Source of the DNA: Azolla caroliniana
Taxonomy: Eukaryota; Plantae; Polypodiophyta
Assembly: GCA_043228905.1 (NCBI GenBank)
Contig: JBHGNT010000015.1
Location: 5,766,001 to 5,830,000, forward strand
Reading direction: 5' to 3'
DNA: 64,000 nucleotides
Below the pieces are notes generated by a model. The model ran no database searches, was not told the origin of the DNA, and worked only from the letters and a program-made list of their open reading frames with translations. The position numbers and the translations under genes were made by a program. Shown one piece after another: positions 19,651 through 44,019 of this stretch (position 1 is its first letter; every line of letters begins with the position of its first letter).

Positions 19651-19675
19651 GGTTTAGGGTTTAGGGTTTAGGGTT
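19651..19675 (+). repeat. Interstitial plant telomere repeat GG(TTTAGGG)3TT
   Basis: Three perfect units inside the Copia-C integrase. Confidence 0.95.
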
Positions 19676-22600
19676 CAAGTCGAGCTTGTTTGGGCTCTGA
19701 TTATGCTTGTTGGGGAAAGGAAGTCGGTGTTGCTTCCCTAGCTGGCAGGCTTCACAAAGTTGTACCTTCCAGCCACTAAATTTGGGCGATCTGAACACCA
19801 CTTGTTTCGATTGCAGGTCCTGAAGCTGTTGATAGTTGACGTGGCCTATCCGCTTGTGCCATAAGTGGATATCCGACTCAACTTTTTGTCCTTTCACGAA
19901 CATTGCGGTGCCACCATCACTAGAGTCAAGGATAAACATTGTCCCGTCTCTGCGCCGTTGCGCAATAACTCGGCCTTCTTCCTCGATGAAGCACTCGAGA
20001 TGCTTGAACCCCTAGTTGACAATCTACCCGACTGACACAAGATTCTTTGTGATTGTCGGGACGTGTAACACATTCATGAGTTTCCCTTTCTGCCCGACAT
20101 GGCTCAGGGGAACTTCACCGACATTCGTGATCGAATGCGGAGTGTCGTCTCCGGTTGCGTCTACTCCTGGATACATCAATTTCTCAAGGTATGAGAACCA
20201 CTCCTTGTGGCACATCATGTGATTTGACGTGCCGGGGTCGACGTTGTCGTGAAAATCCGTCACTATGTGCGGATCGTGAGACGGAACCTCCGGGGTTCTG
20301 GACTAGAAGGATTTAGTGCAACACGTACAACACAAGCAAGTTTTAAGCATAAGACAAGTGAGCGAGACAAATCATTAGTTTATTGCAAAGAAAATCGATT
20401 CTTTATAATTTCAGAATCGTGTTACAATGGGTTGGGTATGGAAATGAGAGATTAATTTTTCAAAGAAAGGAGCCAACAACCATGCATCCACGCATGCGTG
20501 CGCGTAGTGTACGCATCCACACATGCACGCGCGTCCAACCCGCACCGTGTACGCATCCGCGCGCAAAAATCTCGACTGCGCCGTAGTGTACGCATCCACG
20601 GATGCACGCCTCTACGTGCTCTCCGCACACACGCGTCCGTCCGAAATGTCCACACGTACATCCGAAGACATCCATGCGCACGTATGTCCGAAAACGTCCA
20701 CGTGGCCATGCACACACGCGTGCGCCCAATCCTGCATACACGCATATGGCCAAAGCGTGCACACCACACAATGTACCCCAAGTCACCTTGAACATTCTGT
20801 GCTCCACACATTGATAGAATGAACATGTTTTGGTTTCCCTTATATATTTTGGGTTCCAATGTTGTCCTATCTATGTGGGATATCTCACAGTTTTGTCTTT
20901 TCTTTTCTTTTCTTCAAACTTTACACTCACATAACTTGATACTTGTTTATCCGTTTTATGCGTAGTAAAATACGCTATGAAGCTCTTGAACACATCTATC
21001 TTTCCATATCAATATATTAAGCTAATCGTAAATAATTATTTTACTAGTTTTCATATCGTGTGTGAAAAACCACATGACATTCATCCCCACCAAACCTACA
21101 CATCCACCAATATGTGCCAATTTAGGTGAGGTTCCTGTTTTTTAATTACTCTTCTTCAACCTTGATGTTCGAGGATACATCATCTAGAGTTTCGATCTCA
21201 AGATTTGGGGCCTCTCTTCTCTTAAAGATCTTGATCCTCTTCCCTGCTATTGGCAAAGCAAGTCGAGTTCCATCTAACTCCGCTAAAAAATAGGTTGCAT
21301 TGCTTTCTATTTTCTTGACCATATACGGGCCAAACCATCGTTTTGCGAACTTTCGAGCAGTGCTATATTGATTATCGAGACTACTATCATAGACAAGAAC
21401 CCAATCTCCTTCTTCAATTTTTCTTTGTCGAAGACGATGCTTTCTATCAAAATTGTCCTTGTTCTTCAATCGAGCTTGGCGCAACTGTTCTATTGCCAAC
21501 TCAACATCTTCGGGCCTTCGTTGTAATTGTTGAATCCTCGTGGCTAGCAATTCTTCCTGACTCATTTCCTCTTGCCATGGCAAAGATGTCCACGAAGCAA
21601 CACTTTGCTCAATAGGCATTATTGGTTTTTGTCCTAATATGAGTTTGGCGGGCATATATCCCGTAGTTGTGCTATGTGTAGTTCTATCTACCCACAATGC
21701 ATAAGGTAGTAATCGTGGTCAATTTCCCATCTTGCCATCGCAAGTCTTTGCTAGAGCTTTTACAATTGGACTATGTCCTCGTTCCACCTTCCCATTTGCG
21801 TCCGGGTTGTATGCCATGGTGAGCGATAATTTGACGCCTATTCTTGAAAATAACTCTTTAGCTTCATGCGCATCTAATTCTCCCCTATCGGCCACTATTT
21901 TGCCGACACATCCGTATCGACAAATAACATCTTCAAGGAGAAACTTACAAACTGCCGAAGTTGTTTTATTCCTTAGTGCCCGTCCTTCTACTTGGTTGGT
22001 GAGATCCTCTCTTGCTAGCACGAGATATTTCATTTGGCCCAATTCCATTGGCATAACCACTATGTCTACGAACCATTTATAGTGCATTGATAATGGATAT
22101 GTCGGACGAAGTTCATCCCTATGTTGAATATTCGAGTATAATTGGCATTGCTCACATGTTTCAACATAACTTGCTACATCTTTGTAAACACCCGGCCACC
22201 AATACTTCTCCTTGAGCTTTGCAAATGTTGCCCACATACCACGATGACCTGCCCACACACTATCATGAAATTCAGCAATTAGTGTTTGTTGATCCTGTTT
22301 CTTGCACACCACTTGAAGTGGAGTTCCATTCTTCTTCTTCCGAAACTTCCATAGATGTCCTTCTTTGAGGAAGAACTTGTAGGCCTTCTTCCTAATTCGG
22401 TAAAAGTCTTCCTTTGACTATGATTCATCTTTTGTAAGAGAGCTTAAGTATTTGCCAATTTCGATGAATTCACCCTCATAATCTTCTACTTTGAACACTG
22501 CTAGCACCCGAGCACAAGAAACCGTAAAGAAGTTTACGCCAACATCCTCTTCGTTGGAGTGCAAATCTTCTTCACCCTCATACCTCGCCCTTGACAACAT

Positions 22601-24307
22601 ATCGGCCACCAGATTATGCTTTCCATTTATATGCCGAATCTCAGGGTTGAGGGACTTGATATAGGCAATCCATCGCAGCATTGCAATATCCGGTGAAGCA
22701 CAACCGGATATCATTCCGAGAATAGGTAGATAGTCGGTTTCGATTATGACCTCTATTCCTATAAGGTAGTCACGGTTTGTATTAACTGCGGACACTATTC
22801 CCCATAGCTCTCTCTTTACTTGAGCTTACTTCCTTTGTCTTTCGGTTAACACCTTCGCACCGAATCAGATTGCATACCGATTCTTTTCTTTATCTTCTTG
22901 GTTTATCACCCATCCAATTCCGGTTGGGCTCGTATCCACCGTCACATATATCAGGGTACCATCGGTGTAGTCGGCTTTGCGCAGTGCTGGATCTTCTAAT
23001 AATAGTTTCTTTAGCTTTAGAATCACGTAGGTATGCTCATCTTCCCATTTGAACTTCTTCCTTTTCTTTAATAGTCCATACAATGGTTCAACGACATGGG
23101 CATAATGTGGAATCCATATGTGATAGAATGCACATGCTCCCAAGAATCTTCGCACCTTCGTTTGAGACACACATTCTTCTTTCATCTCTTGAATAGCGTT
23201 CACCTTAGATGGAGATGGTTTCCGGCCATAAGACCCACATAAGTGTCCTACTACTAATATTTCTGGTTGACGGAATGCAGACTTCTCTCCCGAAAACGTG
23301 AGATTTGCATCCTCAAGCTTCTGCAACACCTTCTCGCTATCCTTTATATGATCGATGAAGAATCTTGAAACTGATCATAACCCGAGTAGAGATCACCAAT
23401 GGAATAGATCGATCTTCCCGCGAAGGCTTCGGCAAATTCATCCACACTTGGACCAATTCCGGCATTTCCGATCGTCACCTTGTTGACGGGTTGGAGATCT
23501 TGTATAAAGCGTAAGGACCCGTTCTTCTTCGGCACCGTAAACTATCTATTAGAGTACGGAGCATTGGATGGCTCAACAATTCCCATCCTAACCTTTTCCT
23601 TTAGAAGCTCAATCAACTTTGGAATGTGAGCTTTCGGAACCGGTATCAGATTGAGGTTCCAAGGTACATGCGGCACCGTAAAAATCACCATTGGCTCTAT
23701 CATCGTCGGGTTGGTACATTCGATCTCTTGTGGAGAGAAGGCAAAGGCTTTCCCATGTATCTCAAGCATTCGGCGGAACATTCTCTCCTCTTCGGGGAGA
23801 AGGAAATCTTCCCTTCCAAATTGTAGCTTTCCTTTCGTCTTTTTGGTGAAGACATGACCTATTGACTTTCGATCCCTTAAGCTCGGATCATTGGCAACTT
23901 CTTTCATCTTCTATCAGCTATCTTCCGGTAGCGAAACCGCAACTGGCTTGATCTTCTTATACACCGTTTTATATTTTGTGTTGACTTCAGCTTCCTCCAT
24001 CAAGATGCCCCGATGATATCATCGATGATAGCGTACATGTTGACGGAGTTAACCGAAATCACATTTTGATCGTGAGGGTAGCTCAATTCCGCGACCTCGT
24101 CGATTTCACCGATGGTGTCATTAAATGAGGCTTCCTCTAGAATATGAGACACAAATTCTTCTTCTTCGATTATGCTTTCTTCTTTCAACATCTTCTCGAA
24201 GTCTTGTATCTGGCGCTTGTCCTTCTTGTCTAGTAGTGTTAGTTTACATGCGCCACTAGGTGTCACACATGTTGCTTCTCCTTGCGGTCCACTTATTTCG
24301 CTTCCTT

Positions 24308-24371
24308 GTGGGGACTTATGATTGCTCGGACTATTTGTGCCCCACGCTTCAATAGTGCGCTCTAAAAATCC
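24308..24371 (-). other. Putative -1 ribosomal frameshift cassette
   Basis: G GAT TTT TAG followed by a stem and pseudoknot. The downstream ORF is in the -1 frame. Conserved at 38337-38400. Confidence 0.7.
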
Positions 24372-26577
24372 GAGGATTCGCCTCCAAGGCTATCTCGGTT
24401 CCTTTCGTGATTAGCCCTCACCGTAAGGAATTGAACAGATCTTTGATTGTCAAGGCTCTTGACTTGCGTGAAGGCTGCTCCAGTATCAAACACGTTAGAC
24501 TCCATCCAGGACGACGTGATATATGGTTGTCCTAGGATGACGGGATGTGAAGCCGAGTCTTGCACGAAGAAGTGTTGATCCATCTCCACATCTCCGATCG
24601 TGACTTTAACGTTGGGGCAAGCTCCGTACAAGTTTTCTATGGCCTTCGTTGCCGCTCGTATCTTCCATCCGTGGTTTGTGTTGATCGGCCATCTTCCTTT
24701 CTTGTAGAATTCGGCTGACATGAGGTTGATCTCCGAACCATGGTCAATCAAGGCTACCACGGTCTCCTTCTTCTCTCCGATCCTCACCGGCGTCTCCGTT
24801 GTCGGTCTTGCCCAATGAGGCCGAGAGTAATGGCTGTCCGCCATCACTTCTTCTTCCTCCTCCTCTTCGGATCTTGCCATGGTTATGGCACTTGTTTTCA
24901 CCTCTTCTTCATCCGATTGTTGCCGCTTCCGCTTAATCAAGTCCACGATAGTATCGTGGAACTCCTTCTTAGCGATCCCAAGTAGCTCTCTCAAAGTAAG
25001 GTCGACATGACTGTCTAAAACCTTCTCCTCAAGGACCTTCCGCAAGTTGGTTGTTTGTTCTATATCTGACCTTAGCTTGTAAGTCGGCGCCACTCGTTCC
25101 TTTCCTTTCTTCATAGATTCATCGACTTCCATCGGAGAAGGTTGGCTCGATCCACAAGGCTTCATGCTTGTTTCTCCTATCTCTTTTCGTGGCGTAGGTT
25201 GGGCTTGTCCTTCTTTCCCTGCATTCCTTGTATTGGGACACTTTGAGGTGCCATCTTCTTCACCGGTTCTTTTCCTCTTCTCTTCGACAAGAGCCTCATA
25301 GTTGTCACACACAACCTTCCCAAAGCTTGTGTTATCGTCGACTGGATCCGACCATCCGGTTACTCGTCGCACATTCCGATCAGCATGTTTGAGATCCTCC
25401 AAATATATTTTTCCTTTCTTTTCACACTCGAATACCGTTGGCCAAAACCCAACTCCCGGCTTGATCGTCTTTAGATTCTCTCTTTCGACTCGTATTCCCG
25501 CCAATGCGGCGTAGTGCATGGCTTACACATGCCTTGCATCTTCCTCTTCCACGGTCTTTTTCAGCCCGCCTCTTCTGAAGTTCACTCGTAGTGGCTTTCG
25601 GGTCTCACTCGAGTGGATCATGTTGCCATCCAAATAGACGACATTCTTGCGAATCGCGTCTTGCAAGTCAGTGCACTCCCTTCGCGATTGTTCGAAATTG
25701 TCGCACACCACACATCTATACGCTTCTTTTCCCTTCGGCCCGTGTCGACCTAAGTTGGCCAGCAATACCGCTTCAAACTTCCTGGAGAGCTCTTCGATTA
25801 TAGATTCCTCCATCACTTTCTTGTCGAAATTGTTTATCGGCTTGTTAGACTCAATCGTCATAGGTGCCTTCCTCCTCCACGATTGTGGATTCTCCATATT
25901 AGTTTCCTCTTGCCATTGTCGACGTTTATCAAGACGTCTACAAGCCTTCTTCACCGCCGCCTAGTCTGCTACCAAGCCATTTGGTTGTGTTTCATCCTCC
26001 AAAAAGTTACCCAATTCACGCCGATCTTTCGCATCCACTGCCTTCAGGAATAGTAGGACTTTATCTCCATCGAGAACTCGTTGATCAACACTCGGAAGTC
26101 GGTTATACTTCTGGTCGAATTCGGCATATAGTCGAGACGCACACATATTCTTCCCTTTCTTCTCGATCCAAGACATTAGCGTATGTCGAGTCATCCGCGA
26201 TGCGTCTTCAAGCATGTATTCGGCGAGAAGCGCCTTTTTGAACTGTGCCCAAGTTGCATGCTCGCTCTGGATCTCCATGATGCGCTCGCGGATCCGTGGT
26301 TCCACCACACGTTTGAAGCTAGAAATTTGTTTGAGATCGTTGACGTCCCCTTTGTTGCATCTCGTTCCAATAGGTAGCAAGAAAATCCATGATGCTCTTG
26401 CCACCAAATCGTCCAGCTATCTCGATCGTCTGATCAACTGCTTTGTCGATTAAAGCTTCTCGATCTGTCACCTTCAGCATGTATTCCACTACAGACACCA
26501 TACCTTTCGTTAATTCCTCTCCTTGAGTTTCGCTTGTTGAAGCCATTGTTGCACTTGATATCCTTCCTACCGCCTCT

Positions 26578-26595
26578 TTCACGTCGGGTTCACCA
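26578..26595 (-). promoter_or_regulatory. tRNA-Trp PBS
   Basis: + strand reads TTCACGTCGGGTTCACCA, matching the plant tRNA-Trp 3' end as I recall it. Lies 8 nt from the LTR. Confidence 0.85.
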
Positions 26596-27269
26596 CTTAA
26601 TTATATCGTGAAAATCCGTCACTATGTGTGGATCGTGAGACGGAACCGCCGGGGTTCTGGACTAGAAGGATTTAATGCAACACGTACAACACAAGCAAGT
26701 TTAAAGCATAAAACAAGTGAGAGAGACAAATCATTAGTTTATTGCAAAGAAAATCGATTCTTTATAATTTCAGAATCGTGTTACAATGGGTTGGGTATGG
26801 AAATGAGAGATTAATTTTTCAAAGAAAGGAGCCAACAACCATTCAATGAGTGGTCTGATATGAATACAAGAGATAATTTTTGATGAGAAAGATCGAGTAA
26901 ACAAAGCTAGGAGTTTGATATCAATATGTGAGATAATTTGTTTCTCGAATCCGAGAGGGAAGAAGAAAGAAGGGGGAAAAGAAAAAAACCAAGGAGGGAA
27001 AAAATGGGACATATATCGAGCTCCTTGTTGCTTCTCCTCCCCAATGTTACTTTGCATGCCCACTTTTAGTTCGCTGGCCTCTAATTTCCGTTGCATGACC
27101 TCTGCTTTTAGTTGCATGCTTCCATTTTTAGATGCATGCCTTTAACTTTTAGTTGCATGGCCCTTGCTTTTGGTTGCATGCGACTGTCTTTATAATTCGG
27201 CCAAATGACACAATCATCCATAAAGTTTAGCCCGTGCGCAATTCGTACGTGCATCGCAACCAAACCGTA

Positions 27270-27745
27270 GACGCGTCTGCGCGCAAAAGTCCCGATCGCG
27301 TAAGGTATGCATCCACGCGTGTCCAACCCGCACCGCGTACGCATCCACGCGCAAAAATCTTGACCGCGCCGTAGTGTACGCATCCACGCATGCCCGTGCG
27401 TCCAACCCGCATTGTGTATGCATCCGCGTGCAAAAATCTCGACCGCACCGTAGTGTACACATCTGCGCGCAAAAATCTCGCACACGCCGTAGCGTACGCA
27501 TCCACGCATGCGCGCGCGTCCAACCCGTACCGTGTATTCATCCGCGCGCAAAAATCTCGACCACGCCGTAGTGTACGCATCCACGCATGCACGCGTGTGC
27601 ACACACGCGTCTGCGTGCTCATCCGCACATACGCGTCCGTCCGAAGACATCCATGCGCGCGTACGTCCGAAAACATCCACGCAGCCATGCACACGCGTGA
27701 ACTTCTAGTCGTGCATACACGCATATTGCCCGAAGCGTGCACACC
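27270..27745. repeat. CpG-rich alternating purine/pyrimidine tandem array in Gypsy-2 LTR
   Basis: Repeated GTACGCATCCACGCATGC..GCGCAAAAATCTCGACC units. Variants at 20480-20765 and 41255-41620. Confidence 0.88.
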
Positions 27746-28752
27746 ACCCAATGTAGCCCAAGTCACCTTGGACATTTTGTGCTCCACATATTGATAAAAT
27801 GAATATGTTTTGGTTTCCGTTATATATTCTGGGTTCCAATGTTGTCCTATCTATGTGGGATATCTCACAGTTTTGTCTTTTCTTTTCTTTTCTTCAAACT
27901 TCACACTCATATAACTTGATACTTGTTTATCCGTTTTATGCGTAGTAAAATACGCTATAAAGCTCTTGAACACATCTATCTTTCCATATCAGTAGATTAA
28001 GCTAATCGTAAATAATTATTTTACTAGTTTTCATATCGTGTGTGAAAAACCACACGACAACGTACCACACCTCGTCTGATTTCGGGGTGATCTTCTTCAT
28101 CGAGTTTGCTTCGTGTCTCATCACGAAGGCTGATCCTCTTTCGGCTTTTCCTTATCCTTCGGCGTAGTGCGATCGCTGCCGATTTCCTTTGTTAATCTGT
28201 CTGGAACCTTATCCGAACCCTGTTCTCTCCCAATCGGCGCACTTTTTTTAGCACACGCTCTCCCTATCACCTTTCTTGTCATAGTACCAGCATTCTGTGG
28301 CGGATTTCCCTTGCCGGTTCTCATCGCCTCGACTCCCCCTGTTTCCGGAGGGTCCAGAATTGCTGTCGGCATCACTTCGGTGCCTTCTTCCTTGATCCCG
28401 TCGGCCACCTCCATTGCGCAATGACTCGCCTCGTCTGCCAGGACCACGAGGCCTATCTCCCTCCGTGTACAACATCTTGCTATCGGTGTGCGTGCTCGTC
28501 GACGCAGTCGTGTGGTTCTCCTCTATAAGTAGAATTGATTGTAGGTCGAAAAACGACGACGTATTCTCCTGTGTACACACAACCTTTCGGAATGCTCCGA
28601 ACTTCGATGCCAATCCCCCGAGACAGATCTGCACAATTTTGCCTTCCTCGACGTTCATATCGATAGAGGATAAGGAGTCGCATATCTCTTTGATCTTTGA
28701 GGTGTAATCAATCACCAACAAGTCGCGTTGTCGTAGGTGTAATCAGTCACCA

Positions 28753-29817
28753 ACAAGCTCAACATTCGTGCGTAATACGATGCGTAACCCAATGTGTAGA
28801 GTGGGTGCGTAAATCGGTACGCATAACATGGCCGTATCAGTGCGTAAACTGGAAGGCCGTCAGTATGATATTCCTCGTAAGGAATAATTTTGGGAGTTAG
28901 TGTAGTAGGCTCGTTTATGAGCATTCTGAGAGGAATGCACGCTCCCTTTGCACAACACTTGGCCACAACCGAGTCTAAAATCAAACACAGAGAAAAACGG
29001 GTAATGAATGCACGACACAATGGAGAGAAGAGTACACAAGATGTTTACGTGGAAAACCCAAACACGGGAAAAATGACGGCAGTCCACTGACTGCTAACTA
29101 TCACTATGTAACAATATACAAAAGATGAACACAGAGGCAACAACCTCTTGTTCACTGTCTTCGCCACAAGCGGCGGTTACAACAGAGATACGAACTCTTC
29201 GTCTCTTTCTCTCTCTCGCTCTCTCTGTACATTGTTGCGCTCTAATCTTGCGCCAACAAGAATGACAACAACTCATACATTAAGTTTGCCCTAAGTCATA
29301 TTTATACTAATATGACTTTTCGGCTATTTACAAATATAGCCCCGATGGACTCTCAGAAACATATTTATGAATATGTCCCTTTATCCAGTGAGCACTCCTT
29401 ACCGGGCCTGCATCATCCGGCTCTTGCCGGGTACTCGTCATCCGGTTCTCACCGGGTCTTCCGTTGTCGGGTACTCCTCATCCGGTTCTCACTGGGTCTT
29501 CCGTTGCCGGGCACTCTACATCCGGAGGGACCTGTTTCCTAACACATTCAAGTACTGTCAGTACTTGTGTTAGCCCTATTGTCAGGGCTTGTATAAAAGG
29601 TGCTCACTGAGCACGATGTATATATAGAGTGAGTATTTTTTGAATTGAGTTTCTGTGTGTTCTCTCTCTGTGTCTCTCCCACGTATTGTGCATATTCAAG
29701 CTCTCCATTAAACTTGCGTATTTTCCGTGTTCAGTTCTCTATTGCTTCCCCACAGAATCTTCTTCATGGTATCAGAGCGCGAGGGTTGAGAACCTCTGCA
29801 GTTGACATAGCTTGATC
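28753..29817 (+). mobile_element. Bryco-like 5' LTR + iMet PBS + leader fragment
   Basis: Homologous to LTR 61540-61940. Ends at 29766, followed by TGGTATCAGAGC at 29767-29778. Confidence 0.88.
28927..29544 (-). mobile_element. Tork-like solo LTR, TSD CATTC
   Basis: TG...CA ends. CATTC at 28922-28926 and 29545-29549. Contains TTTACGTGGAAAACCC and CCGG-rich repeats at 29400-29525. Confidence 0.9.
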
Positions 29818-32164
29818 GAACTTCTCGAATATTCCAAAGAGTTGGCCAAAGTTTGACTTTCTTGATACGAGAAGGATCAATTTCAACTCCTCGTTTGGTT
29901 ATGAGATGTCCAAGATAAGTAATTGATTTCTTGAAGAACTCGCATTTTGAGATCTTCGTGTAAAACTGTTTGTCACGCAATGTTTGTAAAACAAAGCGGA
30001 CATGTTTAGCATGTTCTTCTAATGTACGACTATAAACTAAAATATCATCCAAGAAAATAACAACAAATTTTCCAAGTTGTTCTCGGAAAATGTCATCCAT
30101 TTCTTGTTGAAATGTGGCCGGAGCATTGGTCAAACCAAAAGGCATAACCAAAAATGCATAATGGCCATACCATGTAGAAATGCCATTTTAGGACCATCTT
30201 CCTTACTTATACGAATTTGATGGTAGCCCGTACGGAGATCAAGTTTCGTAAAATACTGAGCTCCCTGGAGACAGTCAATTAGATCGTCAGCCCGGGGCAA
30301 TGGATATGAATTCTTGATCGTCAGTTTATTCAAGCGTTGGTAATTAATATACATACGCCATGTGCCCTCTTTCTTTTTTACCAAGAGAACAGGTGCACCC
30401 CATGGAGATTTACTATAACGTATATAACCCATTCGTAAATAGTCCTTGAGTTTCTTAGATACCTCATCCTCTTTGGATCGATTTAAGCAATAAGGAGGTA
30501 TACTTATTGGTGCAACACCAGGTACAATATCTATACGATGCTCTATATTACGTTTAGGAGGTAACCTATGTGGTAGTTCACTTGGAAAAACATAACGAAA
30601 ATCATTTAAGATTTCATCGAGTTGTTGTTGTTCAAAATATGATAATTGACCCGAGATATTCTCAATATTATAAACGTGAATGTTCGGATCAAGTACACAA
30701 TAAAATAAAGAAGAACAAGACAACTCGGATATCAATGGAGAGGAAACAATCAAAAGAGATTGTTTGTTTATGCATTGAATAAAATGAGTACAATTGTTTA
30801 GTACAAAAGAAATGGATTGGTGAACCCAATCAATAGATAAAAAGGCGTTTTTATTAAAAAACCAGGGATAACCTAGTATTACATCAATGGTACGAAGATT
30901 CATTACATGGAAGTTTACTTCCTCTATATAAGCATCAATAGAAATTCCTAATGAATGAATCTCCCTGCTAATGTATTGTACACTCCCATCAGCCAAGTGC
31001 ATCTTATAGGTGTGATCACTTACGGTGGGTTGGATTCCTCATATTTGAACCAAATGATCATTCACAAAGTTGTGTGCACTTCCCAAATCAAATAAACATT
31101 GTATCGAGATCCATTGATACAGTCGTTTGTCCATTAAAATACCCATTTGCACACAGTAAATCATTGGGTCCCAATACATAGTGAGGGAAAGAACATTTAC
31201 AATTACTTAAATGATGTGTATAGACCCGAAGGACATTAGGAATCCGACCTTTATGGTCTGCAACTTTTGTTTTGTTGTCGTGCTCTTTCCGTTGGAGCTT
31301 TCGACATTGATCTTTTGTATGAGTTACCCTTCTTTTTGTTGAATACGCAAAAAGGATTTTGTCGCTTACATCACGATCCATGAATTTGTTGGGTGCCTTG
31401 CGTTTCCCAACGAATTGTGACTGCTTAGTCCTAGGCGCTTCGTTGGGTTTGTTATGGTCCTTCTTTGAAGTGCGTTGATAGCGAAGGACAATTTCAATGG
31501 CCTCCTTCAAGGATTTGGGATCCTTATCGTGCAGTATCCAATGATAGTCTGAATTGTGGATGCCATTGACAAAACAAGCTATTAACTAATTTCCCCCTTC
31601 TAGACCCGATTTTTGGATTTGGGTTCTAACATGGTGAACATAGTCTTCTAGCGAGGAAAATTTCCTACTAGAGAGGTTCATTAAAGCTTGTGCTGCCTCG
31701 GTTCGAGATGGAGGTTGCAGAAATTGGCCCTTGAAAACAGTGGCAAAATTTGTTCAAGTATCGGGCCCACACCACTAGGTGGCGGCCTTACCCCCTAGGT
31801 CTCGGTCGACATATGCAATCTTTGTACTATCTAGCTTGGGATAGAGCTCAAAATGAGACTCCCATCGGGCCAACCACATGTAGATTGCTTCTTTGGTTCT
31901 TTCCTTTTTTTCTCACGTAAATGGCTTTACGACAAATGATGGTTCACGTTGACGCTCATCGAGTTTATTAGTATCATGTTGTAAACTAATGACACGTGCC
32001 TCGAGAGCACTATGAGATTGCCGAAGTTCGGACATCGGATGCATGGTTGAAATAAGGGAATTTTGTATTTGTATCAAATACGAGTGAATGGGGATTGACC
32101 CAGGAGGATTTTCTTGAATTCCTTCCACTTGAGCGGATGACATCGGGTCGTTATTATGAGCCAT
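29818..32164 (-). mobile_element. Old chromovirus-type Gypsy remnant (gag-PR-RT)
   Basis: [45 protein letters not shown]. Confidence 0.88.
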
Positions 32165-34377
32165 TTAATGATAATGTTAATAATTAGGTAATTAAGCAAG
32201 GGTTAATTAGTACCTAATTATGTGATGAAGTTAAGAGGAAGAGAGAGAGAGAAGTACACTTATGATTAACACAAGATGGGGGATGATTAACTCTATATTA
32301 AATTAGCATCATCATCATCAAATACAAAAATACCCACAATGAGTTATATATAGATCTCATGTGCAAGGTTGGACATGTGTGAGGAGAATATAGGTACAAG
32401 GGTGTAAGTCCTATATTAAATGTACTTGGGAGTGGAGGATCTAGAATATCCCACTTAAGTATAAGGTCCTATTTAAGGCGTTACAGTCAACACTTCTAAC
32501 TAGATTCTATCTAGGTAACTACGAAGTTACATGGTTGACTAACTAACTAAACTAAGTTGAGCTTGATCTCTCAACATGCCCCCTCAAACCAAGTGTGAGG
32601 CGTCCGACATCCGGTTCTACTTTCGGCGTTGTCCGGCTTTCGATGTCGGCTTCTGTGCGGCTTTCGGCGTCGGTATTCTCGTGGCAGTTTCGGTTTCTCC
32701 CCCTCAAGCCTGTGACGGAGGCTTGGGTCGACTGCTTTCACCCATTGTGGATTACGAGCCACTTCTGTAGAGCTCTCAAGCTCTTGTTTGGCCGTTACCT
32801 TCATCGTGAAGGCCTAATGATGGGCCATGTACTTGTTGTAACCGAGCCGAGTGACGGGATTCTTCTTTCTAGAAGAACGTCGATGTTTTTCGTTTGCCGA
32901 TGTGAGCGCCTTCTTTACTCCGGGTGTTCGCGTGATGGGTACACCAAACTCACTGTCTAGTGAGGGAGCCGACACATCTGAATCACTATCGTTGGGGTGA
33001 TCGACTTCTTATTCGGGCATCTTACCTTTGCCTTTGTCCAAGGTCGTACTTGGACGCGATGTGCTTGGGTCGCGTGAAGGCTCGTGTGGTCCACTTCGCT
33101 CGGTAGAGCTTGGATGGTCCTTTGGTGAAGGGCTTGGCCAAATATCATCCTCTAGGTTGACGTTCAACTCTTCCTCGGTCGGGCCGGGTGGAGTTGAATT
33201 GGGCTTATACCATGATGCCGATTCGTCGAAGACTATGTCTCGACTCACCCAAACCGCTCGGGTCGAAGGGTTATAGCACTTTTATGCCTTCTTCTCAGAC
33301 GAGTATCCTAAGAGGACACATTTCTCCGACTTCACGTCGAGCTTCTGTCAGTTTTTGTTCGGGATGCGTACATTCGCAATGCTTCCGAACACCTTGAGGT
33401 GCGACAAGATTGGCTTCCTTCCGACAAGGAGCTCGTATGGAGTTAGCTCATGCACTCCATTGGAGGTGCATCGATTCATGAGATAGATGACCGTGGATGC
33501 CGCATCGGCCCAATAGAAGTTCGGCATGGGCTTCTCATGTAACATGGTCTGTACTACCTCGAGTATTTGACGATTCTTCCATTGGGAGACTCCATTTTGT
33601 TGGGGTGTGTGTTGGCATGAGAATTCTCTCCGAATGCCTTCACTTTGGAGGTAGGAGGTGAGTTCATCGGAGAAGTACTCCTTGCCTCCATCCGATCATA
33701 GGCATCGAATGTGCTGATTGGTTTCCTTTTTGACTTGGCCCTTGAGCTTTTGGAAGTGGGAGAACACTTCGCTCTTCTTCTTCATCGAAAAGATCCACGC
33801 GTAGTGTGAGTAGTCATCGATGAAGGTGACAATCGGCATCCTCCGTTCATCGGTGTTTGAGCTCTCCTTCGGGAATGGGAGTCAATGTTGTTTGCTGAGT
33901 TGGCATGCTTCGCATACTCGGTCGACTCAAATGTCGGAAGTCTGATGACGACTCCCTTTGTTTGCATCGCTCAAAGCTGTTGGAGGTTTATGTGCCCGAT
34001 TATTTTGTGCCACAACTCAATGCTAGTCTCGGTTCAAGACCTTTGGCATACATGGACGGTTTCACCTCGTTCGAATCGAGGATGAACATGCGACCATCTC
34101 TTCGTCCCTTGGTTTTGAGTCAGGCATCTTTCTCGATGAAACAACCTTCATTGTTGAAGCAGACTTGCATGCCTTGCTCCATGATTTGCACGACTGACAC
34201 CAAATTCTTCGTTATTGTGGGCACGTGCAAGACATTCTTGATGCAAGTTTGTTCGCCTTCTTTCCCGAATGGGACATTGCTGATGTGCTGAATGGGATGT
34301 GTGGTGTCGTCTCTCGTCTCTATGAAGCCGGGTCGGTCCGGCGTTCGTAAGTCATGGAACCACTCTTGGTGTGACGT

Positions 34378-37300
34378 TGTCGTGAAAATCCGTCACTATG
34401 TGCGGATCGTGAGACGGAACCGCGGGGGTTCTGAACTAGAAGGATTTAGAGCAACATGTACAACACAAGCAAGTTTTAAGCATAAGACAAGTGGGAGAGA
34501 CAAATCATTAGTTTATTGCAAAAGAAAATCGATTCTTTATCATTTTAGAATCATGTTACAATGGGTTGGGTATGGAAATGAGAGATTAATTTTTCAAAGA
34601 AAGGAGCCAACAACGATGCAAGGAGTGGTCCGATATGAATACGAGAGATAATTTTTTACTAGAAAGATCAAGTAAACAAAGCTAGGAGTTTGATATCAAT
34701 ATGTGAGATAATTTGTTTCTCGAATCCGAGAGGGAAGAAGAAGGAAGAAATAAAAACAAGGAGGGAAAAAATGGGACATATATCGAGCTCCTCGTTGCTC
34801 CTCCTCCCCAATGTTACTTTACATGCCCACTTTTACTTGGATGGCCTCTATTTTTAGTTGTATGGCCTCTGCTTTTAGTTGCATGCTTCCATTTTTAGAT
34901 GCATGCCTTTTACTTTTAGTTGCATGGCCTTGGCTTTTGGTTGCATGCGATTGTCCGTATAATTCGGCCAAATGACACAATCATCCATAAAGTTTAGCCC
35001 GTGCGCAATCCGTACGTGCGTCGCAACCAAACCGTAGACGCATCTGCAATTGATTCTTTTCCCTGCAATTGGCAACGCAAGTCGAGTTCCATCTAACTCC
35101 GCTCAAAAATAGGTTGCATTGCTTCCTATTTTCTTGACCATATACGGCCCAAACCATCGTTTTGGGAACTTTCGAGCAGTGCTATATTGATTATCGAGAC
35201 TACTATCATAGACAAGAACCCAATCTCCTTCTTCAATTTTTCTTTGTCGAAGACGATGCTTTCTATCAAAATTCTCCTTGTTCTTCAATCAAGATTAGCA
35301 CAACCGTTCTGTTGCCAACTCAACAGCTTCGGCCCTTCGTTCTAATTGTTGAATCCTCGTGGCTAGCAAGTCTTCCCGACTCATTTCCTCTTGCCATGGC
35401 AAAGACATCCACGAAGCAACACTTTGCTCAATAGGCATTATTGGTTTTTGTCCTAATATGAGTTCGGCGGGCATATATCCCGGAGTCGTGCTATGTGTAG
35501 TTCTATCTGCCCACAATGCATAAGGTAGTAATCGTGGCCAATTTCCTATCTTGCCGTCGCAAGTCTTTGCTAGAGCTTTTACAATTGGACTATGTCCTCG
35601 TTCCACCTTCCCATTTGCGTCCGGGTTGTATGCCATGGTGAGTGATAATTTGACGCCTATTCTTGAAAATAACTCTTTAGCTTCATCCGCATCTAATTCT
35701 CCCCTATCGGCCACTATTTTGCCGACACATCCGTATTGACAAATAACATCTTCAAGGAGAAACCTACAAACCACCGAAGTTGTTTTATTCCTTAGCGCCT
35801 GTACTTCTACTTGGTTGGTGAGATCCTCTCTTGCTAGCACGAGATATTTCATTTGGCCCAATTCCATTGGCATAACCACTATGTCTACGAACCACTTATA
35901 GTGCATTGATAATGGATATGTTGGATGAAGTTCATCCCTATGTTGAATATTCGAGTATAATTGGCATTGCTCACATGTTTCAACATAACTTGCTACATCT
36001 TTGTAAACACCCAGCCACCAATACTTCTCCTTGAGCTTTGCAAATGTTGCCCATATACCACGATGACCTGCCCAAACACTATCATGAAATTCAGCAATTA
36101 GTGTTTGTTGATCCTGTTTCTTGCACACCACCCGAAGTGGAGTTCCATTCTTCTTGTTCGAAAACTTCCAAAGATGTCCTTCTTTGAGGAAGAACTTGTA
36201 GGACTTCTTCCTAATTTGGTAGAAGTCTTCCTTTGACCATGATTCATCTTTTGTAAGAGAGCTTAAGTATTTGCCAATTTCGATGAATTCACCCTCATAA
36301 TCTTCTACTTTGAACACTGCTAGCACCCGAGCACAAGAAACCGTAAAAAAATTTAGGCCAACATCCTCTTTGTCGGAGTGCAAATCTTCTTCACCCTCAT
36401 ACCTCGCCCTTGACAACATATCGGCCACCACATTATGCTTTTCATTTATATGCCGAATCTCGGGGTTGAGGGGCTTGATATAGGCAATCCATCATAACAT
36501 AGCAATATCCGGTGTAGCACAACCGGATATCATTCCAAGAATAGGTAGACAGTCGGTTTCGATTATGACCTCTGTTCCTATAAGGTAGTCACGGTTTGTT
36601 TTAACCGCAGATACTATTCCCCATATCTCTCTCTTTACTTGAGCATACTTCCTTTGTTTTTCGGTTAACACCTTCGCACCGAATCGGATTGCATACCGAT
36701 TCTTTTCTTTGTCTTCTTGGTTTATCACCCATCCAATTCCGGTTGGGCTCGTATCCACCGTCACATATATCGGGGTACCATCGGTGTAGTTGGCTTTGCG
36801 CAGTGCTGGAGCTTCCAATCATAGTTTCTTTAGCTTTCGAATCGCATAGGTATGCTCATCTTCCCATTTGAACTTCTTCCTTTTCTTTAATAGTCCATAC
36901 AATGGTTCAACGACATGGGCATAATGTGGAATCTATATGTGATAGAATGCACATGCTCCCAAGAATCTTCGCACCTCCGTTTGAGAAACACATTCTTCTT
37001 TCATCTCTTGAATAACGTTCACCTTGGATGGAGATGGCTTCCGGCCATAAGACCCACATAAGTGTCCTACTACTAATATTTCTGGTTGACCGAATGCAGA
37101 CTTCTCTCCCGAAAACGTGAGATTTGCATCCTCAAGCTTTTGCAACACCTTCTCGCTATCCTTTATATGATCGATAACGAATCTTCGGCAACCATCGTCA
37201 TCTTTCGATTCATCTTTTTCTTCCACCAAGCATCCTTTGATTGGAATGTCATCTAAGAAGGGCATTGTGATATCAGGGATACAATCCCTCAACACTTTGT

Positions 37301-40300
37301 TCATGGCATTCACCATGTGGGCTACGAAATTTGTCGCAGCTTGGGGTAAGGTGCACATCCTTACCAACCCGATCGGCTTCCTCATTGTCGTTATATCTCT
37401 ACTATCAACGGCCAATTGAAATTAAACATAACCCGAGTAGAGATCACCAATGGAATAGATCGATCTTCCCACGAAGGCTTCGGCAAATTCATCCACGCTT
37501 GGACCAATTTCAGCATTTCGGATCGTCACCTTGTTGACGGGTTGGAGATCTTGTATAAAGCATAAGGACTCATTCTTCTTCGGCACCATAAACCATCTAT
37601 TAGAGTAGGGAGCATTGGATGGCTCAAGAATTCCCATCCTAAACTTTTCCTTTAGAAGCTCAATCAACTTTGGAATGTGAGCTCCTAGAACTGGTATCGG
37701 TTTGAGGTTCCGAGGTACATGCGGCACCGTAAAAATCACCATCGCCTCGCTCTATCATCTTCGGGTCAGCACATCCGATCTCTTGTGGAGAGAAGGCAAA
37801 GGCTTTCCCATGTCTCTCAAGCATTCCGCGTAACATTCTCTCCTCTTCAAGGAGAAGGAAATCTTCCCTTCCAACTTGTAGCTTTCCTTTCGTCTCTTTG
37901 GTGAAGACATGACCTACTGCCTTTGGATCCCTTAAGCTCGGATCATTGGCAACTTCTTTCATCTTCTGCCAGGTATCTTCCGGTAGCGGAACCGCAATTG
38001 GCTTGATCTTCTTATCCACCGTTTTATATTTTGTGTTGACTTCAGCTTCCTCCATCAAGATGCCTCGATGATATTCATCGATGATAGCGTACATGTTGAC
38101 GGAGTTAACCGAAATCACATTTTGATCATGAGGGTAGCTCAAGTCCACGACTTCCTCGATTTCACCGATGGTGTCGTTAAATGAGGCTTCTTCTTCGATT
38201 ATGCTTTCTTCTTTCAGCATCTTCTCGAAGTCTTGTATCTTACGCTTGTGCTTCTTGTTGAGTAGTGTTAGTTTACATGCGCCACTAGGTGTTACACATG
38301 TTGCTTCTCCTTGCGATCCACTTATTTTGCTTTCTTGTGGGGACTTATGATTGCTCGGACTATTTGTGCCCCACGCTTCAATAGTCCGCTCTAAAAATCT
38401 GAGGATTCGCCTCCAAGGCTATCTCGGTTCCTTTCGGGATTAGCCCGTACCGTAAGGAATTGAACAAATCTTTGATTGTCAAGGCTCTTGACTCGCGTGA
38501 AGGCCACTGCATTATCGAACACCTTAGTCTCCATCCGGGACGATGTGATATATGGTTGTCCTAGGATGACGGGATGTGAAGCCGAGTCTTGCACGAAAAA
38601 GTGTTGATCCATCTCCACATCTTCGATCATGACTTTAACATTGGGGCAAGCTCCGTACAGGTCTTCCGTGGCCTTCCTTGTTGCTCGTATCTTCCATCCG
38701 TGGTTTGTGTTGATCGGTCATCTTCCTTTCTTGTAGAATTCGGTCGACATGAGGTTGATCTCCGAACCATGGTCAATCAAGGATACCATAGCCTCCTACT
38801 TCTCTCCGATCTTCACCGACGTCTCCGTTGTTGCTCTTGCCGAATGAGGCCGAGAGTAATGGCTATCCGCCATCACTTGTTCTTCCTCTTCCTCTTCGGA
38901 TCTTGCCATGGTTATGGCACTTGTTTTCACCCCATCTTCATCCGATTGTTGCCGCTTCCGCTTAATCAAGTCCACGATAGTATCATGGAACTCCTTCTTA
39001 GCGATCCCAAGTAGCTCTCTCAACGTAAGGTCGACATGACTGTCTAAAACCTTCTCCCCAAGGACCTTCCGCAAGTTGGTTGTTTGTTCTATGTCCGACC
39101 TTAGCTTATAAGTCGGCGCCACTCGTTCCTTTTCTTTCTTCACAGATTCATCGACTTCCATCTGAGAAGGTTGGCTCGATCAACTGGGCTTCATGCTTGT
39201 TTCTCCTATCTCTTTTCGTGGCGTAGGTTGGGCTTGTCCTTTCTCTGCATTCCTTGTATTGTGACACTTTGAGGTGCCATCTTCTTCACCGGTTCTTTTC
39301 CTCTTCTCTTCGACAAGAGCCTCATAGTTGTCGCACATAACCTCCACAAAGCTTGTGTTATCGTCGATTGGATCCGACCATCCGGTTACTCGTCGCACAT
39401 TCCAATTAGCATGTTTGAGATCCTCCAAATCTATTTTTCCTTTCTTTTCACACTCGAATACCGTTGGCCAAAACCCAACTCCTGGCTTGATCGTCTTTAG
39501 ATTCTCTCTTCCGACTCGTATTCCTGCCGATGCGGCGCAGTGCAGGGCTTCCACATGCCTTGCATCTTCCTCTTCCATGATCTTTTTCAGCCCGCCTCTT
39601 CCGAAGTTCAATCATAGCGGCTTTCGGGTCTCGCTAGAGTGAATCATGTTGCCGTCCAAATAGACGACATTCTTGGGAATCGCGTCTTGTAAGTCAGTGC
39701 AATCCCTTTGTGAGTGCTCGAAGCTATCGCACCACACACATCTATACGCTTCTTTTCCCTTTGGCCCGCGTCAACCTAAGTTGGCCAACGATACCACTTC
39801 AAACTTCTTCCATCACATTCTTCCATCGCTTTCTTGTCGAAATTGTTGATCGGCTTGCTAGGCTCGATCATCATAGGCGCCTTCCTCCTCCACGATTGTG
39901 GATTCTCCATATCAGTTTCCTCTTGCCATTGTTGACGCTTATCAAGACGGCTACAAGCCTTCTTCACCACCGCCCAGTCTGCTACTAAGCCATTCGGTTG
40001 TGTTTCATCCTCCAAAAAGTTGCCCAATTCACGCCGATCTTTCGCATCCACTGCCTTCAGGAATAGTAGGACTTTATCTCCATCAAGAACTCATTGATCA
40101 ACACTCGGAAGTCGGTTATACTTCAAGTCGAATTCGACATATACTCCAGACGCACACATATTCTTCCCTTTCTTCTCGATCCAAGACATTAGCGTATGTT
40201 GAGTCATCCGTGATGCGTCTTCAAGCATGTGTTCAACGAGAAGCACCTTTTCAAACTCCGCCCAAGTTGCATGCTCGTTTTGGATCTCCATGACGCACTC

Positions 40301-41933
40301 GCGGATCCGTGGTTCCACCACACATTTGAAGCTAGAAATTTGTTTGAGATCATTGACATCCCTTTGTTGCATCTCGTTCCGATAGGTAGCAAGAAAATCC
40401 GTGATGTTCTTGCCACCAAATCGTCCAGCTATCTCGACCGTACGATCAACAGCTTTGGCGATTAATGCTTCTCGATATCTCACCTTCAGCATGTATTCCA
40501 CTACGGACACCATGGCTTTCGTTAATTCCTCTCCTTGAGTTCCGCTTGTGGAAGCCATCGTTGCACTTGATATCCTCCCTACCGCCTCTTTCACGTCGGG
40601 TTCACCACTTAATTATGTCATGAAAATTCGTCACTATGTGCGGATCGTGAGACGGAACCGCGGGGGTTCTGAACTAGAAGGATTTAGAGCAACATGTACA
40701 ACACAAGCAAGTTTTAAGCATAAGACAAGTGGGAGAGCCAAATCATTAGTTTATTGCAAAAGAAAATCGATTCTTTATCATTTAAGAATTGTGTTACAAT
40801 GGGTTGGGTTTGGAAATGAGAGATTAATTTTTCAAATAAAGGAGCCAACAACGATGCAAGGAGTGGTCCGATATGAATACGAGAGATAATTTTTGACCAA
40901 AAAGATCAAGTAAACAAAGCTAGGAGTTTGATATCAATATGTGAGATAATTTGTTTCTCGAATCCGAGAGAGAAGAAGAAGGAAGAAAAAAAAAACAAGG
41001 AGGGAAAAAATGGGACATATATCAAGCTCCTCGTTGCTCCTCCTCCCCAATGTTACTTTGCATGCCCACTTTTAGTTGGATGGCCTCTATTTTTAGTTGT
41101 ATGGCCTCTGCTTTTAGTTGCATGCTTCCATTTTTCGATGCATGCCTTTTACTTTTAGTTGCATGGCCTTGGCTTTTGGTTGCATGCGATTGTCCGTATC
41201 ATCCATAAAGTTTAGCCCGTGCGCAATTCGTATGTGCGTCGCAACCAAACCGTAGATGCGTCCGCGCGCAAAAGTCTCGACCGCGTAGTAGTGTACGCAT
41301 CCGCGCATGCGCGCGCGTCCAACCTGCACCGTCTACGAATCCACGCGCAAAAGTCTGAACCGCACTCTAGTATACGCATCCACGCATGCACGCGTGCGCA
41401 CACACGCGTCTGTCCGAAACATCCACGCGTACGTCCACGCATGCGCGTGCGCACATACGCGTCCGTCCGGAACGTCCACGCATACGCCCGAAACTTGCGC
41501 ACGCGCGTACAGCCGAACACGTCCATGCACGCGTACGTCCAAAAATGTCCACAGGGCCATGCACATGCACATACGCTCAAAGCGTTTCGTGCACACACGC
41601 GTATGCCTGAAGCGTGCATACCACATAGTGTAGCCCAAGTCACCTTAAACATTCTATGCTCCACACATCGAGAGAATGAATATGTTTTGGTTTCCCTTAT
41701 ATATTCTGGGTTCCAATGTTGTCCTATCTATGTGGGATATCCCACCGTTTTGTCTTGTCTTTTCTTTTTCTTCAAACTTCACACTCACATAGCTTGATAC
41801 TGGTTTATCCGTTTCATGCGTAGTAAAATACGTTATGAAACTCTTTAAGACATCTATCTATATGAATACATTAAGCTAATCTTAAATAAATGTTGTAGAA
41901 GTTTTCATATCGTGTGTGGAAAACCACACGACA
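34378..41933 (-). mobile_element. Gypsy-2b, TSD ACGT
   Basis: ACGT at 34374-34377 and 41934-41937. 5' LTR 40616-41933. 3' LTR truncated near 35048 (PPT lost). RT PFLDDIPIKG. Confidence 0.93.
40590..40607 (-). promoter_or_regulatory. tRNA-Trp PBS
   Basis: Identical 18-mer and identical 8-nt spacer as in Gypsy-2a. Confidence 0.85.
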
Positions 41934-44019
41934 ACGTCATATGATGTGAGGCACCGGAATCGACGAACCACACGTCTTCCAAATTGGAGGTGGTTGTGGA
42001 GTCGGAGGCCAACATAGAGTTCTCTCTATGCCTCATTACGAATAGTCCGCCGTATTCGGAGTTGGTGGCGTAATTCGTGAGTTGTCAACTTGTCAAGGCG
42101 AACTCGCTTCTTCTTTTTCGGCACTCCTTTCGATGGCCAATTTTTCCGCAATACTTGCAAGTTGCGGGCCTCCTTGGCCGACCTTGTTTAGCATGGAAGC
42201 TTCCCCTTCTTCCGAAGGTTCCTCGATGGTTTCCGTGAAGGTTTGAGTTCCCTTCGTGTGATGGGCTGAATTAGCCTCTTCTACTACCGTGACCTCGTTC
42301 TTAGCCACCGTCCGAACTTGAGAAGAACATTTTTCCTTCCAACACCTTCGTCTTGGTTTGGAAGTGGTTCTCTTCAACCAATGACATTGATTGGAGGTCG
42401 AAGAACGAAGGAGGGTTTTCTCTCACCAAGATTGCCGTCTGTAATGGATCGAATCGTTGTGCGAGGCCGCCCAAGCATATTTGAACCATCTCTTCTTCAT
42501 CGACATTTATGTTGATGGAGCCAAGCGAGTCGCAAATGCTCTTGATTTTGGTGTAGTCCGACATAGACATATCGTTTTGCCCAATGTTGTTCAACTCTTG
42601 TCGGAGTTGAAGCTTTCAAGCGGTCATGTTGGCGGCGAACATCTTCTTCAAGTTCCCCCACGCCTCTTTAAGCACCTTGGCGTCTCGAATGTGGCTAAAT
42701 ATGTGATCGTCAACACATGTTGCCAAGTAATACATGACTCGACTAGCCGCTTGCTCCCATGTTGTGTAGTCGGCGAGTCGGGTTGATTTTCTTGTGTTCC
42801 ATTGATGTAGCTCCAATACCCTTGGTCGGCGGGGTATTGGGTCATCTTGTACTCCCAAGATGAATAATTGCTCCGGTCTAGCTTTTCACTCGGTAGCGAG
42901 CTACCCATTTGTGTGTTCATTTTGATGTAGTGTCTTCCTTTTTCGATTTCCTTCCCTCGATCACATACTCGTGCTACGTAATGGCACTATGGTAGAGGAC
43001 AACCAGAATTTGTCGTTGGCATTTCAAACACACAATTACGAAGAGTTGGGTGGACTTAGTGGATGTGCTAAACCACACGTTATGATACCATGTTAATAAT
43101 TAGGTAATTAAGTAAGGGTTAATTAGTACCTAATTATGTGATGAAGTTAAGCAGAAGATTAAGTGATATATGTTTGTGTATGTGTGTGAGAGGAAGAGAG
43201 AGAGAAGTACACTTATGAGCAACACAAGATGGGGGATGATTAACTGTATATTAAATTAGCAACATCATCATCAAATACAAAAATACCCACAATGAGGTAA
43301 TATAGATCTCATGTGCAAGGGCGCACATGTGTGAGGAGAATATAGGTACAAGGGCGTAAGTCCTATATTAAATGTACTTGGGAGTGGAGGATCTAGAATA
43401 TCCCACTTAAGTACAATGTCATATTTAAGGTGTTATAGTCAACACTTCTAACTAGATTCTATCTATAGGTAACTACAAAGTTACATGGTTGACTAACTAA
43501 CTAAACTAAGTTGAGCTTGATCTCTCAACAAATAACTTCTGGCAAAGAAATAGGATAAGGTCAGAAAAATAGTCATAACATCATGTCGTGATGTAAACAT
43601 ATCATGGCCAAACATTAATCGATATTATGATCTCACGTGAATACCCCTCTAGACGTATGAGATGAGGTTCAAGATCAGGTTACTATGGTAACACAAAAGT
43701 GTTTTAAAAACCATGGGGGTGACAAATGAATGTCTTTCCCTGATCTCTATATCGATTTGTTCATGTATGTTTGTCATGAATAGTTTAAACACGAAAAAGT
43801 GTTAACAGTAAACTATGTCTCTGTGCCCACACATGTGGTTTGGGCTCTTTAAGTCCTATTACAAGGACCCCGAAGTGCACTTAGACCTAAAGTCTAAACA
43901 TGTCTTATAATCAAGTTATATGTATCAACAATGTTGTATGGTATTGGTCATATTTGAACTCGAGACCTGTACGAGACGATCGACAGAGCAGAAATACTCA
44001 CGGGGGTATTAGAGTTAGA

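What the first reader, a model, noticed from the sequence alone, without database searches (positions are those of the whole stretch)
20241..41937. A Gypsy family inserted twice beside the Copia protease catalytic codon, both with TSD ACGT
Seen: Gypsy-2a splits W-Y-V|D of Copia-C, with the TSD immediately before the Asp codon. Gypsy-2b splits DSGASHHM-T|S of Copia-D, 8 codons after the Asp. The hosts have different LTRs and the sites differ, so these are independent events under 30 bp apart in homologous coordinates, both co-oriented with the host and both with ACGT. Known: most plant LTR elements make 5-bp TSDs without a fixed sequence. Inference: a sequence-selective integrase, possibly parasitising this Copia group. 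n=2 only.
Basis: partly seen in the sequence, partly recalled or inferred. Interest (0 to 1): 0.72.

Follow-up and report, generated by a model that had tools for sequence, protein, structure and literature searches.

The report
CG-targeting Phygy-like retrotransposon, no protease targeting
Both insertions are real, but this jumping-gene family inserts at CG dinucleotides all over the genome, a preference already described for the Phygy lineage to which it likely belongs, and shows at most a weak, statistically unsupported excess at the Copia protease site.

Summary
Two independent, co-oriented Gypsy copies (20245-28059, 34378-41933) carry 4-bp ACGT duplications 29 bp apart in homologous coordinates, in two different Copia families.

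The integrase is sequence-selective, but for NCGN, not ACGT. Of 172 junctions, 138 have a CG centre and 29 its deamination products; background CG is 4.6% and ACGT is 41 of 172. With its tRNA-Trp primer site, 7.6-7.8 kb size and no chromodomain or extra RNase H, the family matches Phygy, whose NCGN preference is published (PMC6317226).

Copia parasitism is not supported. 53 of 168 sites lie in Copia coding DNA against 26% expected, spread over the whole polyprotein, 27 versus 26 by orientation. The protease window is a mild hot spot: 3 of 53 against 1.4 expected (P=0.16), and 6 genome-wide against about 3 (P=0.07-0.10). Its WYV and SNHMT codons carry favoured ACGT/GCGT sites, which explains most of this; a residual excess of about 1.5-2-fold is not excluded. 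Three look-ups showed no earlier scan note on this.

The parts
20245..28059 (-). Gypsy-2a, Phygy-like Ty3/gypsy element (7,815 bp; gag-PR-RT-RH-IN broken by stops and frameshifts; about 230 bp of RT missing relative to 2b)
20241..20244 (.). 2a target-site duplication, left copy ACGT
28060..28063 (.). 2a target-site duplication, right copy ACGT
20245..21079 (-). 2a 3' LTR (835 bp, lacks much of the internal repeat tract; 93.9% identical to the 5' LTR over 814 aligned bases)
21080..21091 (-). 2a polypurine-tract-like stretch directly before the 3' LTR
   Evidence: same junction in 23 of 30 loci
26580..26595 (-). 2a primer binding site complementary to the 3' end of host tRNA-Trp(CCA), after an 8-nt spacer
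26604..28059 (-). 2a 5' LTR (1,456 bp, with 21-bp and 39/118-bp tandem repeats)
24365..25522 (-). 2a Gag C-terminal part (DUF4100, PF13352) and aspartic protease (weak PF13650 match)
21149..22417 (-). 2a integrase (H2C2 zinc finger, rve core, C-terminal part); no chromodomain match
34378..41933 (-). Gypsy-2b, second copy of the family (7,556 bp; 90-95% identical to 2a internally; inner half of 3' LTR and PPT deleted)
34374..34377 (.). 2b target-site duplication, left copy ACGT
41934..41937 (.). 2b target-site duplication, right copy ACGT
40592..40607 (-). 2b tRNA-Trp primer binding site
40616..41933 (-). 2b 5' LTR (96.6% identical to the 3' LTR remnant 34378-35047)
17111..20242 (-). Host Copia-C downstream part (PR from the Asp codon, IN, RT, RH)
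   Evidence: tblastn with the L190 ORF, 70-80% identity
28060..28739 (-). Host Copia-C upstream part (gag to ...DEVWYV)
32175..34377 (-). Host Copia-D downstream part with 3' LTR 32175-32576; no RT or RH match
41934..43530 (-). Host Copia-D upstream part (gag to DSGASHHMT) with 5' LTR 43091-43530; 5-bp TSD GATAA/AATAA

Best explanation
These are two independent copies of a Gypsy retrotransposon family, likely of the Phygy lineage, that inserts at CG dinucleotides with a 4-bp duplication (NCGN, A-CG-T favoured) across the genome; both likely landed beside the Copia protease codon because Copia is abundant and that motif carries favoured sites. Shown: 4-bp TSD, CG centre, heterogeneous outer bases, sites distributed like a random draw of NCGN sites, no orientation bias. 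Inferred: the integrase makes a 4-bp staggered cut around a sharply bent central pyrimidine-purine step, as retroviral intasomes do, with an added base-specific preference for CG. Also inferred: after insertion, methyl-cytosine deamination (CpG, and CHG created next to the LTR's TG/CA ends) turns ACGC, GCGT and GCGC copies into ACGT and inflates that TSD.
For: Centres of 172 right-end junctions: CG 138, TG 17, CA 12, TA 2, other 3; background CG 4.6%. Left ends: CG 60, TG 14, CA 12 of 88. In 58 two-ended copies the mean match is 0.81 at 4 bp against 0.12 at 3 and 5 bp; 42 of 44 mismatches are transitions; 55 of 58 are CG or decay of CG. 4,689 clade LTR ends are followed by NCG, reversed control 15. 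Copia share 53 of 168 against 26.4% null, P=0.08; orientation 27:26. Repeat share 131 of 168 against 451 of 600, P=0.48; CpG o/e equal. The protease 38-nt window is at the 99.9th percentile of 4-mer-weighted target mass but only the 76th of plain CG mass. Protease against three control windows: 7 versus 6, P=0.35 weighted. Decay direction next to the LTR is 16 versus 5, P=0.027, and L232 shows GCAT/ACGT at a GCGT host site. Phygy features from PMC6317226, passages and supplementary table read.
Against: Every test of the protease window leans above expectation: 3 of 53 against 2.6% (P=0.16) or 1.2% under plain CG (P=0.026); genome-wide 6 against 2.8-3.2 (P=0.07-0.10, fold about 2, interval 0.7-4.6) or against 1.6-1.7 under plain CG (P=0.006-0.008); 8 of 14 against motif copy number alone, P=0.047. 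The 4-mer weights come from decayed TSDs, so ACGT is over-weighted and the weighted null may be too generous. No named Phygy reference sequence was available, so lineage rests on features and on unnamed Physcomitrium relatives.
Confidence: 0.85

Rival explanations
1. A real but weak hot spot: beyond the 4-mer, extended sequence context, DNA shape or a conserved nucleosome position over the Copia protease motif raises insertion about 1.5-2-fold.
For: Eleven independent clade insertions are known within about 45 bp of the protease Asp in two Copia families (2a, 2b, L016, L023, L050, L227, L228, L229, L231, L232, L317). Fold over controls 1.45-2.5; fold over the genome null 1.9-2.1.
Against: Not significant under the 4-mer null (P=0.07-0.35). 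Other Copia positions recur too (residues 178-184, 806 twice, 851-853, 887-888, 1037-1041, 1182-1189). Flank positions 5-12 look like the null apart from slight G enrichment at position 5.
Confidence: 0.12
2. One reading: the integrase recognises the Copia protease region (fixed ACGT, co-oriented) and the family parasitises this Copia group.
For: Two of two copies in the window; further copies at the same motif elsewhere.
Against: Only 3 of 168 other sites are at the motif. About 7 of an estimated 2,345 clade insertions lie in the Copia-C window among about 4,000 such motifs. Copia share is not above null. The 11 protease-region insertions are 5 co-oriented and 6 opposite by my reading of the LTR ends, at several positions, with TSDs ACGT, ACGC, ACAT and GCGC. 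The two hosts share no detectable DNA similarity around the site.
Confidence: 0.02
3. The two copies derive from one nested insertion by duplication or co-mobilisation.
For: Same family, same strand, 6 kb apart. PMC6911290 (passages) reports similar nested pairs for Phygy in Tcn1.
Against: Different host families, different positions, LTR pairs of different age (93.9% and 96.6%), 5' LTRs only 89.5% alike.
Confidence: 0.01

Closest known systems
Phygy (non-chromovirus Ty3/gypsy lineage of REXdb; Neumann et al. 2019, PMC6317226, passages and supplementary table read)
   Same: 4-bp TSD with NCGN preference, tRNA-Trp primer site, size near 7.7-10 kb, no extra domain or extra ORF. The Gag-protease part has 29 Physcomitrium patens relatives among the 120 hits listed (37-61% identity).
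   Different: Described there as specific to P. patens; this genome (523 Mb, 22 large contigs) appears to be another species. RT relatives are in Riccia (62-72%) and Adiantum (65%), and Phygy is already reported in the liverwort Apopellia (PMC12885004, passages). Outer-base bias (A>C~G>>T) and post-insertion decay toward ACGT were not in the passages I read.
TatI (REXdb)
   Same: 4-bp TSD (100%) and tRNA-Trp primer (75%).
   Different: TatI carries an archaeal-type RNase H in 100% of elements. None was found in the window fragments or in the close relative P0002; P0050 has only an overlapping sub-threshold RVT_3 match.
Drosophila errantiviruses, ZAM subgroup (PMC5408687, passages)
   Same: Gypsy-type integrase with a palindromic 4-bp target (CGCG for one subgroup; TATA and ATAT for the others).
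   Different: A separate lineage with env and AGT/AnT termini. The specified motif here is the central CG with loose outer bases, and the termini are TG..CA.
Retroviral intasome target capture (PFV, HIV-1; PMC4422553, abstract)
   Same: Preference for a flexible pyrimidine-purine step at the centre, strongest with short duplications.
   Different: That is a weak bias over all such steps. Here about 95% of targets are CG (55 of 58 pairs), with TA nearly absent (2 of 172), so base-specific reading is inferred on top of flexibility.

Membership tests
Ty3/gypsy superfamily | Domain order Gag-PR-RT-RH-IN between LTRs | tested here: met
Phygy | 4-bp TSD | tested here: met
   58 pairs: mean match 0.81 at 4 bp, 0.12 at 3 and 5 bp, 0.30 at 6 bp; pairs were chosen by best 4-bp match with at most 2 mismatches
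Phygy | NCGN target preference | tested here: met
   167 of 172 right ends and 86 of 88 left ends are CG, TG or CA centred
Phygy | tRNA-Trp primer binding site | tested here: met
   the PBS pattern finds 64 places; 4 of 4 loci checked are tRNA-Trp(CCA) genes
Phygy | Length 7,656-9,968 bp, coding region filling the internal part, no extra ORF | tested here: met
   7,815 and 7,556 bp, both with deletions; two other two-ended copies of 8,085 and 8,259 bp
Phygy | No chromodomain and no archaeal RNase H | tested here: met
   Pfam scans of the window fragments and of P0002, P0027, P0050
Phygy | Clusters with Phygy references in RT-RH-IN trees (the primary definition) | not testable with these tools
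   No sequence labelled Phygy was available. Indirect only: 29 unnamed P. patens Gag-PR relatives; no P. patens name among the 120 RT or 120 IN hits listed
TatI | Archaeal-type RNase H domain | tested here: not met
Selgy | tRNA-Ala primer, 4.4-6.7 kb | tested here: not met
   tRNA-Trp primer, 7.6-8.3 kb
Element that targets another element (site-specific parasite) | Most insertions at one host site, fixed orientation | tested here: not met
   3 of 168 at the protease motif; orientation 27:26

The most novel reading that the evidence does not exclude
The Phygy-type integrase is a near-strict CpG reader (about 95% of targets), possibly of methylated CpG, which would let a Gypsy element without a chromodomain follow silenced DNA by reading the DNA mark itself; extended context would add a roughly 2-fold hot spot at the Copia protease motif.
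Probability: 0.12. Interest if true: 0.6.

Novelty: new member of a known kind. Interest (0 to 1): 0.2.

Why it matters
As found, it is a clean, large natural data set (about 2,300 insertions) for the one plant LTR lineage that Neumann et al. 2019 list with a TSD sequence preference. It adds an outer-base bias and shows that ACGT is partly made after insertion. One search for NCGN with retrotransposon returned only that paper and an unrelated one, so the basis of CG choice may be unstudied. True targeting of a rival element's protease would have been a striking case of conflict between transposons, but the data do not support it.

Tried and rejected
Fixed ACGT target: rejected (41 of 172; in pairs ACGT falls from 28 of 58 in either copy to 18 of 58 once transitions are discounted).

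Co-orientation rule: rejected (27:26).

Copia or repeat enrichment: not found. Nor for Gypsy hosts: own lineage 11 of 168 against 35 of 600, the window's other Gypsy 10 of 168 against 45 of 600.

Resemblance between the LTR end and the Copia SNHMT codons (11 of 14 bases) as a recruiting signal: 346 of 1,000 shuffled 14-mers match as well, and Copia-D lacks it. It also caused 2 false rows, which I dropped.

Extended target motif beyond 4 bp: nothing clear at positions 5-12.

Rows dropped before the mapping count (179 to 168): 1 flank under 200 nt, 7 near-identical duplicates, the window's own 2a, one tandem end at L050, and L187 as a repeat of L016. T-starting TSDs were sampled only on the first seven contigs (7 ends; 18 TC junctions genome-wide).

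The Rfam tRNA search did not identify the primer; a pattern search did. The Atlas search gave only generic integrase clusters. PMC7466625 (passages) says RLG1 has a chromodomain and gave no target-site data. No structure or complex job was run.

Full report
Observation. A self-comparison of the window shows two copies of one LTR family at 20245-28059 and 34378-41933, 90-95% identical internally. Both have TG..CA ends and an exact 4-bp duplication ACGT; the fifth base differs on both sides. On the minus strand the flanks of 2a read ...DEVWYV and DPGTSNHM..., and those of 2b read ...DSGASHHMT and SHQEWF..., so both sit in the Copia protease motif, 29 nt apart in homologous coordinates. The hosts are different families and share no blastn match in 500 nt of flank; LTR identities are 93.9% (2a) and 96.6% (2b).

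What the element is. Pfam and tblastn give the order Gag (DUF4100), protease, RT, RNase H, integrase, with no chromodomain and no extra RNase H. The primer site follows an 8-nt spacer and matches the 3' end of host tRNA-Trp(CCA) genes. RT relatives are in Riccia and Adiantum and in unnamed metagenome contigs of up to 96% identity. The Gag-protease part has 29 Physcomitrium patens relatives among 120 hits listed. Neumann et al. 2019 (PMC6317226; passages and supplementary table) define Phygy by a 4-bp TSD (100%, NCGN), tRNA-Trp (81%), 7,656-9,968 bp and no extra domain, and state that Phygy is the exception among plant elements in having a TSD sequence preference. All features I could test are met; the defining tree could not be built. 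The host is probably a seed-free plant (inference from the relatives).

Target rule. An exact LTR-end pattern has 175 matches followed by A, C or G. All were fetched and gave 173 distinct junctions, 172 of them external. Centres are CG 138, TG 17, CA 12, TA 2 and other 3, against 4.6% background CG. TSDs are ACGT 41, ACGC 18, CCGT 17, CCGG 17, ACGG 14, CCGC 12 and rarer ones. Ends followed by T number 94; 18 are TC, and 23 of the 30 checked are the internal PPT junction. Left ends agree (CG 60, TG 14, CA 12 of 88). Fifty-eight two-ended copies, 55 of solo-LTR size, fix the length at 4 bp; 55 of 58 are CG or explained by CG decay, and 42 of 44 mismatches are transitions. Mismatches next to the LTR run mostly toward A at position 1 and T at position 4 (16 versus 5, P=0.027), as expected if the LTR's TG/CA ends put those cytosines in CHG context (inference). 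ACGT is thus favoured (18 of 58 after discounting decay) but partly made after insertion. Sibling families share the TGTCGTG..CACGACA ends and the tRNA-Trp site; 4,689 such ends are followed by NCG.

Is Copia targeted? After dropping duplicates and the window's own copy, 53 of 168 sites map to the Copia polyprotein, from residue 32 to 1384, 27 sense and 26 antisense. Sites drawn from 40 random 7-kb regions with the same 4-mer weights map to Copia 26.4% of the time (95% bootstrap 17-36%; P=0.08). Repeat content, CpG o/e and Gypsy-host share also match the null. The Copia-C protease motif has about 3,900-4,200 copies, so landing in Copia is common.

Is the protease motif targeted? Three of 53 fall at residues 308-326, against 2.6% (weighted null, P=0.16) or 1.2% (plain CG, P=0.026). 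The window is ordinary in CG count (76th percentile) but at the 99.9th percentile once ACGT preference is weighted in, because the WYV and SNHMT codons hold ACGT, GCGT and ACGA sites. A genome-wide junction search gave 11 rows: 2 false, 1 duplicate, 8 independent including 2a. Three control windows gave 1, 2 and 3. Seven of 13 against an expected share of 0.45 gives P=0.35; against plain CG P=0.23; against copy number alone P=0.087, or 0.047 with 2a included. In absolute terms 6 other copies with intact CG are seen against 2.8-3.2 expected (P=0.07-0.10; fold about 2, interval 0.7-4.6), or 1.6-1.7 under plain CG (P<0.01). A reverse search added one more. The 11 known insertions in the region lie at several positions in both orientations (5 co-oriented, 6 opposite by my reading). 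So the motif is a mild hot spot holding about 0.3% of the clade's insertions in Copia-C hosts. Local 4-mer content explains most of it; a residual excess of up to about 2-fold is not excluded, partly because the weights come from decayed TSDs.

Mechanism. Shown: 4-bp duplication, CG centre, loose outer bases, no clear longer motif, no host or orientation bias. Inferred: a 4-bp stagger needs a sharp bend at a flexible pyrimidine-purine step (PMC4422553, abstract), and the near absence of TA and of true CA/TG centres implies base-specific contacts as well. Whether methylation of the CG matters is untested. Sequence-specific Gypsy integrases have precedent in Drosophila errantiviruses (PMC5408687, passages). 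Jedlicka et al. (PMC6911290, passages) found 4-bp TSDs with GC-rich centres and recurrent Phygy nesting in Tcn1.

Novelty. This is a new member of a known kind. Phygy outside Physcomitrium is already reported (PMC12885004, passages). The paper searches listed nothing on protease-site targeting or on the basis of NCGN choice, but the library lacks most subscription papers. Three look-ups of earlier scan notes showed none on this target rule; the place look-up displayed 8 of 35 matching notes.

Noticed in passing
window 2-6158 (-): A different Gypsy element with a 1,264-aa Gag-PR-RT-RH frame, continuing in frame through single stops to the integrase (774-2363), then a further open frame of at least 230 aa (2-691) with no Pfam match; its 3' end lies outside the window.
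   Followed up: partly
window 32175-43530 (-): Copia-D keeps both LTRs (95.6% identical) and a 5-bp TSD but has no RT or RNase H match; it looks like a deleted, non-autonomous copy.
   Followed up: partly
G000 C5:10.10-10.11 Mb, C8:17.80-17.82 Mb, C16:4.99-5.11 Mb: Tandem clusters of the tRNA-Trp 3' pattern (64 matches genome-wide), some spaced about 1.2 kb or 0.87 kb apart: tRNA gene arrays or tRNA-derived repeats.
   Followed up: no
L050/L051 (G000 C2:26438563-26438702) and L235/L236 (C386): The LTR end plus a few dozen to hundreds of flank bases is repeated in tandem, giving two apparent junctions at one insertion.
   Followed up: partly
L015 and L132: Two family copies with LTRs of different length sit at the same Copia position (residue 806); other recurrent spots are residues 178-184 and 1182-1189.
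   Followed up: no
window 27052-27586, 41068-41486: The LTRs carry CG-rich tandem repeats (21, 39/118 and 53 bp) whose copy number varies; LTR length ranges from about 0.8 to 1.9 kb across copies.
   Followed up: no
genome-wide: Solo LTRs dominate the two-ended copies recovered (55 of 58), though stretches reached only 1.5 to 9 kb inward. A sibling family with ends AAATCTTCACGACA/GGATCTTCACGACA makes up most of the first 100 of 4,689 clade ends listed.
   Followed up: partly
window 29708-31038 (-) and 46684-47544 (+): RVT_1 fragments that match the window's other Gypsy RT at 28-37% identity, between the Copia elements.
   Followed up: no
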